Assembly: GCA_048937405.1 (NCBI GenBank)
Contig: JBHLNF010000006.1
Coordinates: 199,819-263,818 of the forward strand
DNA: 64,000 bases
Source of the DNA: Promethearchaeota archaeon
Lineage (GTDB): Archaea; Asgardarchaeota; Lokiarchaeia; Sigyniarchaeales; SOKP01
Direction: 5' to 3'
Position 1 is the first letter of the stretch, and each line of letters starts with the position of its first letter. A program made the translations under genes and the position numbers. A model generated the notes under the pieces. That model had not been told where the DNA came from. It saw only the letters and a list, made by a program, of their open reading frames with translations, and did not search any database. Of the stretch, positions 5,109-46,106 are shown piece after piece.

Positions 5109-5170
5109 TTTTCTATCCTTTTGGATTAGATTTTCTAAAAATTTTACTTTTTGATTAAATACTATTTTAA

Positions 5171-5240
5171 TACCCCTTCCCTTGCAAGGCAAGTCCTCTT
5201 ATAACTACAATTTTTTTATAAGAATCATTCTGCAGGGGTA
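5171..5240 (-). promoter_or_regulatory. Eukaryote-like SECIS element (K-turn, AUGA/GA core, A-rich apical loop) overlapping the mvhD stop codon
   Basis: RNA 5240->5171: UACCCC UGCAG A AUGAU UCUUAUAA AAAAAUUGUAG UUAUAAGA GGAC UUGCCUUGCAAGGGAA GGGGUA. It has an 8-bp perfect upper helix, a UGAU/GGAC quartet with tandem G.A pairs, and outer UACCCC/GGGGUA pairing. Confidence 0.75.
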
Positions 5241-5686
5241 GTTATAACTTGTTTTGTTTCAATTTCTGGTAATTGATCCTGCAAATTAAGTAGATTTGGT
5301 CCGGCTTTTTCAACCTTCCTCAAAGCATCTTCTACACTTTTTACAAATTTCTCCGATTCTGCTGCACTTAACCAATACATATTTATTCTTTGACTACCAA
5401 AACCTCTAGATTCTAAGATTCGGTTTGCTAAATCTACATGTTTTTGGGCTGTGAAATTTCCAATTTTGAACTGACACTCATTAGGACGTCATCCAACAAC
5501 CATGACACCATCAGCTCCAGCACGAATACTATAGAGAATATGCTTAACATCGACCCTGCCAGTACATCTTACTTTAATGATTTTTACAGCTGGTGTATAC
5601 TTCATTCGGGAGACGCCAGCTAAATCAGCTGCACTATAGCCTCACTTTAAACAAGCAAAAACAATTAAGTTATAATTATATACCAT
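5225..5686 (-). CDS. mvhD: MvhD/VhuD [2Fe-2S] hydrogenase iron-sulfur subunit, selenoprotein (U15, U66), 153 aa
   Basis: Hand translation: MVYNYNLIVFACLKUGYSAADLAGVSRMKYTPAVKIIKVRCTGRVDVKHILYSIRAGADGVMVVGURPNECQFKIGN...WLSAAESEKFV. TGA at 5644-5642 and 5491-5489 fall on the conserved Cys of CxxC and GC-x4-C. Missed by the ORF track. Confidence 0.92.
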
Positions 5687-5692
5687 ATTTGT

Positions 5693-7670
5693 TTAACCAC
5701 CTCCTAAGATCCCATCAATTTCAGCAAATAATTGATGATCTCGATAATATCTGATATCAATAGCCTGTGTAGGACAACATGTAGCACAAATACCACATCC
5801 ATCACAATTTATCTCATCAATAAAAGCACCAATATCCTTCTTGATTCTAATTGCACTTTTGGGACATTCTTTTTCACAACGTCGGCATGAAATACAAAAT
5901 TCACTATCCACCTCAGCAGTAATTAGTTCCATATCAATTTTTCCTGGTACTGTTAGCTCGGCTACCTTACTCGCTGCTGCTCTGGCTTGAGAAACTGAAT
6001 AAGCAATATTTTTAGGTCCTTGAGCAAAACCAGCTATAAAAATACCTTTTGATTTCGTTTCTTGGGGCATGAGTCCAAAATGTAATTCCGTAAGAAAACC
6101 ATACATATTAGTATCCAGATTTAAAACGTTTACAATCTGTTGAGTACCTTTTGATGGAAGTGCCGCTGTAGATAATACGACTAAATCCGCATCAATTTTA
6201 ACTATTTTATCTGTTAGAGTCGAGTATACACGAACATTCACGTTTTTTGTTTCAGGATCTTCAGAAATTTCACCTACTTTTCCCCGAATCATTCTAATAC
6301 CAGCATCCTTAGCTCTTTCATAATACTCTTCAAATCCTTTCTCAGGAGTTCTTATATCAATATAGCAAATCGTAATCTTCGCGTCGGGAAATTCTTCAAG
6401 GAGTAATCGCCCATTTTTTAGTGCAAGCATACAACAAACACCACTGCAATAAGTCCGTTCTGTTTCTCGACTACCTACGCATTGAATAAATACAATCTCT
6501 TTAGGTTTTTTATTATCAGAGATTCTGTGCACATGTCCTTCAAGTGGTCCATTTGGGGCTAATATACGTTCTAATTGGGCTTGCGTTATAACATTTTCAA
6601 TTTCCCCATATCCATATTCACCAAATGGTTCATGAATATCCCACCCCGTTGCAATTATAATTGTCCCAACTTCAATCTTAACTTCATTTGGTTCTTGGCT
6701 GAAATCAATAGCATCTAATTCACAGGCATCCACACATGAGAAACATTCTATGCAAGCATTTCTATCAATATCATACAAAAATGGCACCGCTTGACCAAAT
6801 GGTATATCAATTGCTTTTCGTGCGCCTAGATTTTCATCAAAATAATTTGTAGTATAAACAGGACATACTTCACTGCAGGCTCCACACCCATTACAATCTT
6901 CTGTTGTATAACGTGGTTTTTTCTCAACAATCACAGTATAATTACCTACGTAACCTTCAACTTTCTTTACTTCACTAAAACTTAATATTTCAATATTCTC
7001 ATTGCGGTTGACTTCTAACATTTTAGGACCACAAATTCATATAGCACAATCATCTGTAGGAAATGTTCTATCCAATTGAGCCATTCTTCCTCCAATCGTT
7101 GTTTTTTGTTCTACTAAATAAACTTTGATACCTTGATTTGCTAGATCAAGAGCTGCATTCATTCCACCAATCCCACCCCCTACTACTAATGTCGCTTTAG
7201 TTACTGGGACAGTTTTAATAGGAACTGGTTCTAATCGTTTTGCTCTTTCAATACCACTTTTTACTAAGATTTTTGCTTTTTCTGTAGCTTCTTCTTTAGT
7301 ATCCGTGCACCAATTTTGTGTCATTATGCTTTTGAGCATTAAAGACTCTACAATGTTCACGGACATTCACCATTTGAAAGTAATAAGGATTTAAATCAGT
7401 TTTAGCAATTGTCCCTCTATAAATCACTTCATGCGTTCGTGGAGTTCAAGCTGAAGCTACAATTCTATTCAAATTCTTTTCCTTGATATCTTCGATAATT
7501 TCATTTTGAGCATTATCAGTTCAAAGAAATGAGTTTTTCTTTGATAATATAATTTCCTCTCCAAGATTCTTCACATACTCGGTTAATTCATCACAATCTA
7601 CTTTTGTTCGAATATTTACACCTCATTGACAAGCATAGTATCCAATCCGATGATTTTCGTTATTACTCAT
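5693..7670 (-). CDS. hdrA: Heterodisulfide reductase subunit A, selenoprotein (U16, U50, U75, U200), spliced join(7670..7348, 7313..5693), 647 aa
   Basis: From ATG 7670: RIGYYACQUGVNI...SFLUTDNAQ...ASAUTPRTHE...LNPYYFQMVNVREHC-S-WCTDTKEEATEKAK...VVGGGIGG...TFPTDDCAIUICGPKMLEV. TGA codons at 7625-7623, 7523-7521, 7448-7446 and 7039-7037. Track ORFs 7037..7366 and 5693..7021 are fragments of this gene. Confidence 0.9.
7314..7347 (-). other. 34-nt bulge-helix-bulge (EndA-type) intron in the hdrA mRNA
   Basis: Minus strand: CA UUGU AG|A GUC...GAC ACAA AA|U UG. This gives a 4-bp central helix UUGU/ACAA, 3-nt bulges AGA and AAU, and flanking helices. Cutting after the 2nd nucleotide of each bulge joins CAU UGU AG + U UGG = H-C-S-W and restores the frame. 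Confidence 0.8.
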
Positions 7671-44870: not shown

Positions 44871-46106
44871 ATGCCAAAACAACAGATTGAAAGAATTAAA
44901 TTAATTTCCAAATTTTTAGATAAAAACCAAGTGATTAACTTTGATAAATTAAACTCAATTGATGATATTATAAATCTCCCTATTTCTTCATTTAACTTTT
45001 TAAACAATGCCGATACTATTCTTATTTCTGATTTATTTCAAATTAATAGTATAGGTCAATTTATTTCCTTAGATCCAAGTGAACCTTTCAATATTCTATA
45101 TAAAGACAAAAAAAGTAAAAAAAGAATTGAGCACTTATTACAAACTGATTTAGAAATCGAAGATAAAGTAATAAAAGCAGTCACTATAAGTAAAATCATT
45201 TATAAAATAAAAGAAGAATCAATCTCATATTTTAGAAAAGAACAAAAAGTTATTGTTGTTGGTCTAAGTAATGCAGGGAAAACAACAATATTGAAGAAAT
45301 TCGGCGGAGAAATTGGATTAAAAGATTTAGCTAAATTAAAACCAACAAAAGGTGCTGAACGTCAAGAGATAGTAACTACTGATTTAATGTTAATTATTTG
45401 GGATTTTGGGGGTCAAGAAGAATATCGAGAAATGTATATTCAAGACTCACATAGATATTTTTTAAATATAGATTTAATAATTTATGTAATTGATCTTCAA
45501 GATCCACAGAAATACGAAGAAAGTATTGACTATTTCAAAAAAATTATTGCGATTCTTGAAAAATTGGAGGAAAATCCTCATATTTTAATTTTTATTCACA
45601 AATATGATCCTGATTTAAAGGATAATCCAGAAATATTGCTTAATATTGAATTTTTAAAAGATTTAATCAAAGAAACTTTCAAAAATAGGAGAAAATTCGA
45701 TTATGAAATTTATTTAAGTTCAATTTATTCAATATTAGCAAAAGAACCAAAATTTTCAAGATATCTTAAAGAAACTATGGAAAAAACAGCTACGTTAACA
45801 GATTACAAATTAGAAGGTATGTCTTCAGTTTTAGAGTCAACGTTAAATGGAATCATTCGATTATCAGAAGTTGTAATGGGACAATTCAATGAACTTGATA
45901 GGCGGTTAAAAAATCTTGAAGATAAAAAAGAAGACTCCACTGAAATACAAACCTCAATACCTTCTCCAGAATATTCATCACCTCCTAATTTAACTTCACC
46001 TCCAAGCAGTAAGAGATCAACATCAGTGTCACGAAAAGATATTCATAATGCGAAAGGAGCTGTACTTAGAGAATTGAAAGAATTATTAGAAAAAAGGTCA
46101 AAATGA
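44871..46106 (+). CDS. Arf/Rag-like small GTPase with N-terminal extension and C-terminal coiled coil/Pro-Ser tail
   Basis: GLSNAGKTT, KPTKG, WDFGGQ, HKYD and SSIY motifs. Confidence 0.85.
   Translation: MPKQQIERIKLISKFLDKNQVINFDKLNSIDDIINLPISSFNFLNNADTILISDLFQINSIGQFISLDPSEPFNILYKDKKSKKRIEHLLQTDLEIEDKVIKAVTISKIIYKIKEESISYFRKEQKVIVVGLSNAGKTTILKKFGGEIGLKDLAKLKPTKGAERQEIVTTDLMLIIWDFGGQEEYREMYIQDSHRYFLNIDLIIYVIDLQDPQKYEESIDYFKKIIAILEKLEENPHILIFIHKYDPDLKDNPEILLNIEFLKDLIKETFKNRRKFDYEIYLSSIYSILAKEPKFSRYLKETMEKTATLTDYKLEGMSSVLESTLNGIIRLSEVVMGQFNELDRRLKNLEDKKEDSTEIQTSIPSPEYSSPPNLTSPPSSKRSTSVSRKDIHNAKGAVLRELKELLEKRSK

What the first reader, a model, noticed from the sequence alone, without database searches (positions are those of the whole stretch)
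7300..7366. Frameshifting 34-nt bulge-helix-bulge intron inside the hdrA selenoprotein mRNA (tRNA-type mRNA splicing in an Asgard archaeon)
Seen: after ...VNVREHC the HdrA homology jumps +1 in frame and resumes at WCTDTKEEATEKAK, with 37 nt where one codon is expected. The minus-strand RNA reads GUCCGUGAACA-UUGU-AGA-GUC UUUA AUGCU CAAA AGCAU AAU GAC-ACAA-AAU-UGGUGCACGGAU. It folds as an exon-exon helix (UCCGUG/CACGGA plus CA/UG), a 4-bp central helix UUGU/ACAA, two 3-nt bulges (AGA, AAU) each 3' of the central helix, and an intron hairpin (GUC/GAC, AUGCU/AGCAU). Known: this is the BHB substrate of the archaeal splicing endonuclease EndA, which cuts after the 2nd bulge nucleotide before RtcB ligates. 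Applying that rule removes exactly 7347-7314 and yields CAU UGU AGU UGG = H-C-S-W. That restores both the frame and the conserved HdrA REHCSW motif, giving a normal-length 647-aa protein. Three independent constraints (geometry, frame, residue identity) agree. To my knowledge, archaeal mRNA BHB introns are known mainly from crenarchaeal cbf5, and I know of none in hdrA or in Asgard energy-metabolism genes (not database-checked). Inference: making this enzyme needs both splicing and fourfold UGA recoding. A short frameshifting, non-spliceosomal, RtcB-ligated intron parallels the XBP1/HAC1 switch and could be a regulatory gate.
Basis: partly seen in the sequence, partly recalled or inferred. Interest (0 to 1): 0.96.

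Follow-up and report, generated by a model that had tools for sequence, protein, structure and literature searches.

The report
tRNA-type intron splitting Asgard hdrA gene
A 34-base insert shaped like the introns that archaea cut out of tRNAs interrupts the heterodisulfide reductase gene hdrA of an Asgard archaeon, and comparison with relatives shows that the messenger RNA almost certainly has to be cut and rejoined before the enzyme can be made, which published work documents inside a coding sequence only for one other archaeal gene (cbf5).

Summary
hdrA (minus strand, 5693-7670) is broken after ...VNVREHC by 34 nt (7314-7347). These fold as a canonical bulge-helix-bulge (BHB): a 4-bp helix UUGU/ACAA, 3-nt bulges AGA and AAU, an exon-exon helix and an intron hairpin. 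The BHB-constrained fold costs only 0.1 kcal/mol more than the free optimum.

Cutting after the second bulge base gives CAT TGT AG|T TGG, restoring REHCSW, which aligns without a gap to solved HdrA. About 50 orthologs lack the insert at exactly that point.

Five other contigs (Loki_b32 and four distinct metagenome alleles) carry a homologous 34-35-nt intron at the same site:
- 97.9% of helix cells pair, with two compensatory double changes.
- Exon 2 has dN/dS of about 0.05 at dS of about 1.
- Two alleles have no start codon from which exon 2 could be translated on its own.

Orthologs carry further BHB introns at three other hdrA positions. Three other genes of this genome (mvk, rubredoxin, an AIR-synthase-like gene) obey the same rule. 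The genome encodes two EndA paralogs and RtcB.

No RNA data could be obtained, so splicing is inferred. The "regulatory gate" idea has no support. This scan has noted the same phenomenon before, in this genome and in other Asgard genomes.

The parts
7348..7670 (-). hdrA exon 1. It runs from ATG 7670 to the first two bases (AG, 7349-7348) of the split Ser108 codon. It holds three in-frame TGA (Sec) codons at 7625-7623, 7523-7521 and 7448-7446.
   Evidence: The translation aligns to 5ODC_A residues 2-103 at E 1e-28, and the TGA positions align to Cys.
7314..7347 (-). 34-nt BHB intron (phase 2, length not a multiple of 3). Unspliced, the exon-1 frame reads on through the intron and stops at a TAA 17 codons after Cys107, at 7298-7296 in exon-2 sequence.
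   Evidence: It is absent from about 50 orthologs. A homologous intron occurs in L061, L117, L123, L124, L133 and L134. It is not a repeat elsewhere in the genome.
5693..7313 (-). hdrA exon 2. It starts with T7313, which completes the Ser codon, then continues WCTDTK... to the stop codon at 5695-5693. The canonical Sec TGA lies at 7039-7037.
   Evidence: Aligns to HdrA structures (9SFI_A at E 1.6e-169; 5ODC_A residues 110-649). dN/dS is 0.044-0.054 against the other intron-bearing alleles.
7350..7353 (-). 5' strand of the central 4-bp helix (UUGU, exon 1). It is followed by bulge 1, AG^A (7349-7347), with the cut after 7348.
   Evidence: Pair 7350/7319 is U-A here and C-G in the five other alleles.
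7316..7319 (-). 3' strand of the central 4-bp helix (ACAA, intron). It is followed by bulge 2, AA^U (7315-7313), with the cut after 7314.
7320..7346 (-). Intron inner helix h' (GUC 7346-7344 / GAC 7322-7320) and the apical hairpin (AUGCU 7339-7335, loop CAAA, AGCAU 7330-7326).
   Evidence: The third inner pair is C-G here and U-A in the other alleles. The hairpin stems differ in sequence between alleles but all still pair.
7354..7364 (-). 5' strand of the exon-exon (outer) helix: GUCCGUG (7364-7358) and CA (7355-7354).
   Evidence: Both strands of this helix occur together only in intron-bearing alleles.
7301..7312 (-). 3' strand of the exon-exon (outer) helix: UG (7312-7311) and CACGGAU (7307-7301).
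5225..5686 (-). Downstream mvhD/vhuD gene (FlpD family) with two internal TGA codons. The last TGA (5227-5225) is probably the stop codon.
   Evidence: Pfam PF02662 at E 6e-42. The hdrA-vhuD tandem is described in PMC4989117.
5194..5228 (-). lokiSECIS-like hairpin that would serve both genes: AUGA (5228-5225), a 9-bp stem, an 11-nt loop beginning AAAAA, then GA (5195-5194).
   Evidence: Fold. It matches the description in PMC4989117 of a 9-bp stem, an 11-nt apical loop and an AUGA_GA core. It was not scored with a model.

Best explanation
Window 7314-7347 (minus strand) is a genuine bulge-helix-bulge (hBHBh') intron inside the coding sequence of a four-selenocysteine hdrA gene of a Promethearchaeota (Asgard) archaeon.

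Inferred mechanism:
- The pre-mRNA folds so that coding sequence on either side of the insert pairs (GUCCGUG..CA with UG..CACGGAU).
- This presents a 4-bp helix (UUGU/ACAA) flanked by two 3-nt bulges.
- The heteromeric splicing endonuclease EndA cuts after the second nucleotide of each bulge (after 7348 and after 7314).
- RtcB joins the 2',3'-cyclic phosphate and 5'-OH ends.
- The join gives CAU UGU AG|U UGG, that is H-C-S-W, and a 647-aa HdrA.
- The 34-nt intron is probably released as a circle.

Shown here:
- the geometry of the fold;
- exact restoration of frame and motif;
- precise absence from orthologs;
- a homologous, structurally covarying intron at the same site in other lineages;
- purifying selection on exon 2;
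- presence of the enzymes.

Inferred only: the actual cleavage and ligation in vivo, and the fate of the intron.

The intron is most likely a constitutively removed, polymorphic element of the same pool as the very abundant tRNA introns of this lineage, and not a regulatory switch.
For: 1. Geometry. Central helix 4/4, inner helix 3 bp plus a 5-bp hairpin, 10 outer pairs. The BHB-constrained energy is -18.4 against an MFE of -18.5.

2. Product. The splice restores REHCSWC, contiguous with 5ODC.

3. Precise absence. About 50 unique orthologs read GAACAYTGY-TCN/AGY-TGGTGY with nothing inserted. Several use AGT, which is the predicted junction codon.

4. Same-site homologs. L061 (Loki_b32), L134, L117/L133, L124 and L123 carry 34-35-nt introns here.
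- 97.9% of 96 helix cells pair, against 16-46% when the partners are slid.
- There are two compensatory double changes and two wobble-compatible single changes.
- In L117 and L124 the BHB fold is the MFE itself.

5. Exon helix. Both strands of the exon-exon helix occur together only in intron-bearing alleles. This was 2/2 against 0/50 among the MAG orthologs, and it holds in all four distinct metagenome alleles, with one wobble in L123.

6. Selection. Exon 2 stays open for 539 codons and keeps its Sec codon. dN/dS is 0.044-0.054 at dS of about 1 between G000 and each of the five other intron-bearing alleles.

7. No independent start. In L117 and L124 the exon-2 frame has a TAG 9 codons before the junction and no ATG, GTG or TTG after it, so exon 2 cannot be translated on its own.

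8. Other introns in hdrA. Introns obeying the same cut rule sit at three other hdrA positions: L061 30 nt at Gln15|Sec16, L056 30 nt, and L009/L052 39 nt.

9. Other genes of this genome. The rule restores GKTILFGEHFVVYG in mevalonate kinase and CPVCGVGKDMFEKIEG in rubredoxin. It also joins an AIR-synthase-like gene whose PF00586 domain starts at profile position 43 on residue 3 of exon 2.

10. Machinery. There are two EndA paralogs (197 and 200 aa, each with the N and C domains) and RtcB. Asgard EndA is reported as the (alpha-beta)2 type with the L1 loop that gives broad specificity (PMC5829648).

11. tRNA introns. aragorn recognises only 14 tRNA genes in a 4.47-Mb genome that is 100% complete, and 9 of them have introns. 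This fits a lineage rich in BHB introns (preprint 10.64898/2026.10.13.758758).
Against: - There is no RNA-level evidence.
- The unconstrained MFE does not draw the 4-bp central helix, although that is usual for BHB motifs.
- The outer helix has a 2x3 internal loop next to the 2-bp CA/UG segment.
- In L061 and L134 the first inner pair is U.U and the BHB fold lies 2.5 kcal/mol above the MFE.
- The genome has many hdrA paralogs (19 matches), so loss of this copy could be tolerated.
- The intron-bearing alleles do not form a clade in the exon-2 tree. That requires repeated precise loss, or recombination, and neither is explained.
Confidence: 0.9

Rival explanations
1. Inactivating insertion: this hdrA copy is a pseudogene, and the BHB-like fold of the insert is incidental.
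For: The genome has many hdrA paralogs that could compensate. There is no RNA evidence. A random insert of this composition gives a frame-restoring BHB in 0.4-1% of shuffles.
Against: - Exon 2 is open for 539 codons in the shifted frame and keeps its Sec codon.
- dN/dS is about 0.05 at dS of about 1 between G000 and the five other intron-bearing alleles.
- The intron keeps its helices through compensatory changes.
- The same rule holds at three other hdrA sites and in three other genes.
Confidence: 0.03
2. Split gene: the two halves are translated as separate polypeptides (a 124-aa N fragment and a C fragment from an internal start) that assemble into HdrA.
For: In G000 the exon-2 frame has in-frame ATG codons upstream of the junction, at 7366 and within the intron.
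Against: - In L117 and L124 a TAG lies 9 codons before the junction with no start codon after it, yet WCTD... is conserved.
- The break falls inside the REHCSW motif and inside a Ser codon.
- The model does not explain the BHB geometry, the covariation, or the non-triplet length kept in all alleles (34 or 35 nt).
Confidence: 0.02
3. Recoding at the ribosome: translational bypassing (as in T4 gene 60 or yeast mitochondrial 'byps'), or a programmed frameshift within the insert.
For: The insert is short, hairpin-forming, and lies in an AT-rich gene, as byps do (from my own knowledge). In G000 the exon-1 frame stays open through the insert.
Against: - The junction that restores the conserved sequence lies within a codon (AG|T), so no matched take-off and landing codon pair flanks it. 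Hopping from AAT or TGT to a matching codon would delete conserved residues (read directly).
- Frameshifting would insert about 11 unrelated residues into REHCSW.
- The insert interior is not conserved between alleles, so no slippery site is kept.
- In L134 and L123 the exon-1 frame meets a stop codon inside the insert.
Confidence: 0.03
4. Assembly or sequencing artefact: the 34 nt do not exist in the organism's DNA.
For: The genome is assembled from a metagenome. DNA reads could not be inspected.
Against: A homologous insert sits at the same site in six other contigs from independent MAG and metagenome assemblies. The sequence is unique in the genome and is not a repeat.
Confidence: 0.01

Closest known systems
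BHB intron in the cbf5 pre-mRNA of Crenarchaeota (Watanabe 2002; Yoshinari 2006; Yokobori 2009, PMC2738675)
   Same: It is a short protein-less intron inside a coding sequence with a bulge-helix-bulge at the exon-intron boundaries. It is cut by a hetero-oligomeric EndA and ligated. It is present or absent among related species (gain and loss).
   Different: - The gene differs: an energy-metabolism selenoprotein, hdrA, against an RNA-modification enzyme.
- The phylum differs: Promethearchaeota (Asgard).
- Here it is one of several intron positions in the same gene and one of several interrupted genes in the same genome.
- Splicing is not yet shown experimentally here.
[quoted passage not shown]
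   Same: The motif, the cut rule, the size range (about 30 nt) and the enzymes are identical. This genome's tRNA genes carry such introns.
   Different: The host RNA here is a messenger, so removal decides the reading frame. The exon-exon helix is built from coding sequence that is also under protein constraint.
BHB intron in the 5' UTR of Haloferax volcanii HVO_1309 mRNA (PMC7714728)
   Same: EndA processes an mRNA, and this was confirmed in vivo and in vitro.
   Different: That intron lies in the untranslated leader and does not interrupt a reading frame.
IRE1-dependent unconventional splicing of XBP1/HAC1 mRNA
   Same: It is a short, non-spliceosomal, frame-changing intron. Ligation is by RtcB in metazoa.
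   Different: The nuclease is IRE1, which recognises twin 7-nt loops, not a BHB. It is stress-regulated. No KEN-domain match was found in this genome (the control for that search was uninformative), and nothing here points to regulation.

Membership tests
Archaeal BHB (hBHBh') intron, substrate of EndA | Two 3-nt bulges on opposite strands, separated by exactly 4 bp, each lying 3' of its strand of the central helix | tested here: met
   The motif reads UUGU-AGA ... ACAA-AAU, with the central helix 4/4 paired. The same holds in five homologous alleles.
Archaeal BHB (hBHBh') intron, substrate of EndA | Flanking helices h (outer, exon-exon) and h' (inner, intron) | tested here: met
   There are 10 outer pairs (7 + 2, plus one further pair in the constrained fold), with a 2x3 internal loop. 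The inner helix GUC/GAC is followed by a 5-bp hairpin. The constrained fold lies within 0.1 kcal/mol of the MFE.
Archaeal BHB (hBHBh') intron, substrate of EndA | Cutting after the second nucleotide of each bulge yields the functional mature sequence | tested here: met
   The splice gives HCSW in frame, contiguous with solved HdrA, and identical in form to intron-less orthologs that use AGT.
Archaeal BHB (hBHBh') intron, substrate of EndA | Helices are maintained by covariation among homologous copies | tested here: met
   97.9% of cells pair against 16-46% when slid. There are 2 pairs with changes on both sides. 11/500 shuffles reach the observed score, with only six sequences.
Archaeal BHB (hBHBh') intron, substrate of EndA | The host encodes the splicing endonuclease and an RtcB-type ligase | tested here: met
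   PF01974 and PF02778 are found in two genes of 197 and 200 aa. PF01139 (RtcB) scores E 1.8e-169.
Archaeal BHB (hBHBh') intron, substrate of EndA | The intron is actually excised from the RNA (spliced junction, circular or linear intron) | not testable with these tools
No ORF of near-identical sequence that would mark a spliced transcript was found.
cbf5-type pre-mRNA BHB intron (intron within a CDS) | The intron interrupts an otherwise intact, selected reading frame, and intron-less orthologs exist | tested here: met
   dN/dS is about 0.05 on exon 2. About 50 orthologs lack the intron.
IRE1-type XBP1/HAC1 unconventional intron | Twin stem-loops with 7-nt loops cut by the IRE1 KEN-domain RNase; stress-regulated | tested here: not met
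   The structure is a BHB, not twin 7-nt loops. There is no PF06479 match in the genome, although the control genomes for that search were uninformative. Regulation was not testable.
Translational bypass element (T4 gene 60 / mitochondrial byps) | Matched take-off and landing codons flank the skipped stretch | tested here: not met
   The motif-restoring junction splits a codon (AG|T). No matching codon pair gives the conserved sequence.

The most novel reading that the evidence does not exclude
The hdrA intron may be one visible member of a polymorphic population of about 30-nt BHB micro-introns. On this reading they colonise, and are precisely lost from, protein-coding genes across Asgard archaea, at sites where the coding sequence can form an exon-exon helix. 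Routine EndA/RtcB splicing of messengers, and hence a delay between transcription and translation, would then be part of normal gene expression in the closest prokaryotic relatives of eukaryotes. For some genes, such as this Sec-dependent hdrA-vhuD operon, splicing efficiency might gate enzyme production.
Probability: 0.15. Interest if true: 0.95.

Novelty: new member of a known kind. Interest (0 to 1): 0.8.

Why it matters
For more than twenty years the only archaeal coding sequence known to need BHB splicing has been cbf5 of Crenarchaeota. A 5'-UTR case in Haloferax is the only other mRNA substrate.

This report adds three things:
- A central energy-metabolism selenoprotein gene of an Asgard archaeon needs the tRNA-splicing machinery as well as fourfold UGA recoding.
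- The intron is old enough to show covariation across lineages, yet it is present or absent among close relatives.
- At least four different positions in the same gene, and at least three other genes of the genome, are affected.

If confirmed at the RNA level, the consequences would be these:
- Gene callers systematically break such genes in Asgard MAGs.
- Translation of these messengers cannot be strictly co-transcriptional.
- Protein-enzyme mRNA splicing that uses RtcB, as in XBP1 splicing, has a natural counterpart in the archaeal relatives of eukaryotes.

It also gives concrete, testable substrates (junction and circle sequences) for enrichment cultures and metatranscriptomes.

Tried and rejected
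- Search for a protein marking a spliced transcript. I searched for an ORF starting MVNVREHCSW... with near-identity to G000 exon 2. The best hit was 93% identical, an intron-less relative, so nothing bears on G000 RNA.
- Genome-wide scans for BHB plus ORF restoration. With lenient BHB criteria there was no excess over junction-shifted controls: 259 against 254-272, and 5140 against 5134-5396. With energy filters there was only a small excess, 13 against 4-9. Fusions of adjacent genes dominate the background. My thresholds also miss real cases: an ungapped outer helix, at least 50 codons on each side, and TGA counted as a stop. The hdrA site itself failed the first pre-filter. I therefore give no count of mRNA introns per genome.
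- Strict energy scan. It gave 25 hits, of which one is a clear mRNA intron (the AIR-synthase-like gene) and a few are tRNA T-loop introns.
- Intron as a repeat or mobile element. There is no second copy in the genome.
- Rfam at gathering thresholds found nothing in the window.
- Single origin with vertical descent. The six alleles with the intron at this site do not form a clade in the exon-2 tree; their MRCA spans 35 of 55 tips. I could not decide between repeated precise loss and recombination.
- An IRE1 KEN domain was not found, but the control genomes for that search were uninformative.
Full report
**Observation.** On the minus strand the hdrA frame that starts at 7670 reads ...YFQMVNVREHC and then runs into unrelated residues, stopping 17 codons later. 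The rest of HdrA (WCTDTKEEATEKAK...) follows in the +1 frame. The N part aligns to residues 2-103 of the solved HdrA 5ODC_A (E 1e-28). The C part aligns to HdrA structures up to about residue 650 (9SFI_A at E 1.6e-169; 5ODC_A residues 110-649). Removing 7347-7314 yields ...NVREHCSWCTDTKEEATEKAK..., which aligns without a gap to NIREHCSWVHMHEKEKATEKAK of 5ODC. The spliced product is 107 + 1 + 539 = 647 residues. The four in-frame TGA codons fall on Cys, or on the canonical Sec, of the solved enzymes. Multi-Sec HdrA has already been described for Lokiarchaeota (PMC4989117).

**Structure.** The RNA has these parts:
- a 4-bp helix UUGU (7353-7350) / ACAA (7319-7316);
- 3-nt bulges AGA (7349-7347) and AAU (7315-7313), each 3' of its helix strand;
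- an inner helix GUC/GAC with a 5-bp hairpin;
- an exon-exon helix GUCCGUG..CA / UG..CACGGAU.

The free MFE leaves out the weak central helix. Forcing the BHB costs only 0.1 kcal/mol (-18.4 against -18.5) and gives 10 outer pairs. A relaxed BHB search of the whole window on both strands returns two hits, and this is by far the stronger. Shuffling the 37-nt insert gives a frame-restoring BHB in 0.36-1.1% of 200,000 trials.

**Orthologs without the insert.** The relatives are Promethearchaeota (Asgard) MAGs. Among 52 unique orthologous sequences, about 50 read GAACAYTGY-(TCN or AGY)-TGGTGY with nothing in between. Several use AGT, the codon the splice would create.

**Homologous introns at the same site.**
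- Loki_b32 (L061) has a 35-nt insert at exactly this point, with UUGC AG^A ... GCAA AA^U.
- I then ran a pattern search of metagenome contigs. It fixed only exon sequence and left the insert free. It returned five more hdrA contigs with 34-35-nt inserts: L117 (identical to L133), L123, L124 and L134.
- On the six-sequence alignment, 97.9% of the 96 cells of the outer, central and inner helices pair, against 16-46% when the partners are slid by 1-3 columns.
- Two pairs change on both sides (U-A/C-G in the central helix, C-G/U-A in the inner helix), and two change to wobble pairs.
- The apical hairpin stems differ in sequence in most alleles but always pair. In L117 and L124 the BHB fold is the MFE.
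- Both strands of the exon-exon helix occur together only in intron-bearing alleles.
- Caveats: there are only six sequences, they are related, and parts of the exon strands were fixed by my search pattern. The intron strand of the central helix, the inner helix and the distal exon strand were not fixed.

**Is the gene alive?** In every intron-bearing allele exon 2 stays open in the shifted frame for 539 codons, or to the end of the contig, and keeps its Sec codon. Between G000 and each of the five others, dN/dS is 0.044-0.054 at dS of about 1. In L117 and L124 the exon-2 frame has a TAG nine codons upstream of the junction and no ATG, GTG or TTG after it. Exon 2 therefore cannot be started independently there. 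This excludes a pseudogene and argues strongly against a two-polypeptide split gene. Bypassing or frameshifting cannot produce the conserved HCSW, because the junction lies inside a codon and the insert interior is not conserved.

**The rule generalises.** In hdrA orthologs, three further insertion sites obey the same cut rule with 4/4 central helices:
- 30 nt at Gln15|Sec16 in L061;
- 30 nt two codons later in L056;
- 39 nt at Asn100 in L009 and L052, where the BHB fold equals the MFE or lies within 0.1 kcal/mol of it.

First-stage notes gave leads to other genes in G000 itself. I checked three:
- a 31-nt insert in mevalonate kinase, whose removal restores GKTILFGEHFVVYG;
- a 29-nt insert in rubredoxin, whose removal restores CPVCGVGKDMFEKIEG;
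- a 29-nt insert in an AIR-synthase-like gene, where the BHB fold equals the MFE at -27.8 kcal/mol and the ORF is 162 + 302 codons.

Pfam shows a GHMP kinase in the first case. In the third, an AIRS N-domain starts at profile position 43 on residue 3 of the downstream exon, so the insert cuts a domain.

**Machinery and context.**
- G000 has two EndA paralogs, each with the N and catalytic domains, and one RtcB. Asgard EndA is reported as the broad-specificity (alpha-beta)2 type (PMC5829648).
- aragorn finds only 14 tRNA genes, 9 with introns, in a complete 4.47-Mb genome. This fits the heavy interruption of Asgard tRNA genes reported in preprint 10.64898/2026.10.13.758758.
- Downstream of hdrA lie vhuD (FlpD, Sec-containing) and a lokiSECIS-like hairpin. 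This matches the published shared-SECIS arrangement.

**Evolution.** In an exon-2 tree the six same-site alleles are scattered among intron-less orthologs. For example, L117 is sister to L056 with support 0.996. The introns are recognisably homologous, so the pattern needs repeated precise loss or transfer by recombination. I could not tell which.

**Literature.** In the searchable library, BHB introns in archaeal mRNAs are reported only for cbf5 (coding sequence, Crenarchaeota; PMC2738675) and the HVO_1309 5' UTR (PMC7714728). Papers from 2025-2026 on EndA still cite only the cbf5 work. The Asgard tRNA-intron preprint and the two Asgard selenoproteome papers do not mention mRNA introns. Subscription journals are not covered, so this is not proof of novelty.

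**Earlier notes of this scan.** They describe the same phenomenon in this genome and in other Asgard genomes. One cites an RNA-derived contig that lacks such an intron. I did not verify that claim.

[quoted passage not shown] It is a new member of the cbf5 kind in a new phylum and gene. The regulatory-gate idea remains speculation. RNA-level proof is missing.

Noticed in passing
window 5194-5228 (minus strand): Immediately at the end of vhuD there is a hairpin with AUGA, a 9-bp stem, an 11-nt loop beginning AAAAA, then GA. It fits the published lokiSECIS shared by hdrA and vhuD. Its UGA (5227-5225) is probably the vhuD stop codon.
   Followed up: partly
L061:1534-1570 (Loki_b32, NJBH01000004.1): The same hdrA ortholog carries a second BHB insert of 30 nt (UGCC AA^A ... 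GGCA AA^U), placed exactly between Gln15 and the first Sec codon. It is in frame and contains no stop codon.
   Followed up: partly
L056:1550-1586; L009:961-1006; L052:1802-1847: Further BHB inserts occur at two other hdrA positions: 30 nt after Gly17-Ile, and 39 nt at Asn100 with an in-frame TAA. In L009 and L052 the BHB fold equals the MFE or lies within 0.1 kcal/mol of it. L009 and L052 are not sisters in the gene tree.
   Followed up: partly
G000 C17:197207-197243 (L137); C7:432992-433027; C7:314151-314179 (L136, minus strand): Three other genes of this genome are interrupted by 29-31-nt BHB inserts: mevalonate kinase, rubredoxin and an AIR-synthase-like gene. Removing each insert by the same rule restores a conserved motif or a long ORF.
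   Followed up: yes
whole genome G000: aragorn detects only 14 tRNA genes (9 with introns) in a 4.47-Mb genome rated 100% complete. Rfam finds no family at all in the 64-kb window. Most tRNA genes are probably too interrupted to be recognised.
   Followed up: no
window 45665-45711 (plus strand): This is the second, weak BHB-like hit (AAUC AA^A ... GAUU AU^G, 34 nt, -3.1 kcal/mol). It lies just upstream of a 133-codon open frame. It is probably chance.
   Followed up: no
L023 (G023:C1, about 1503900): A one-Sec hdrA paralog reads ...REHCSFVS-TGA-GDKR..., with an in-frame TGA where relatives have His-Arg/Ala. It could be an extra Sec, a stop codon or a lesion.
   Followed up: no
exon-2 tree of hdrA orthologs: Alleles that share the homologous intron at the Cys107/Ser108 site are scattered among intron-less orthologs. 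The short flanking exon helix (GTCCGTG / CACGGA) travels with the intron. This suggests precise loss or gene conversion of a short tract.
   Followed up: partly
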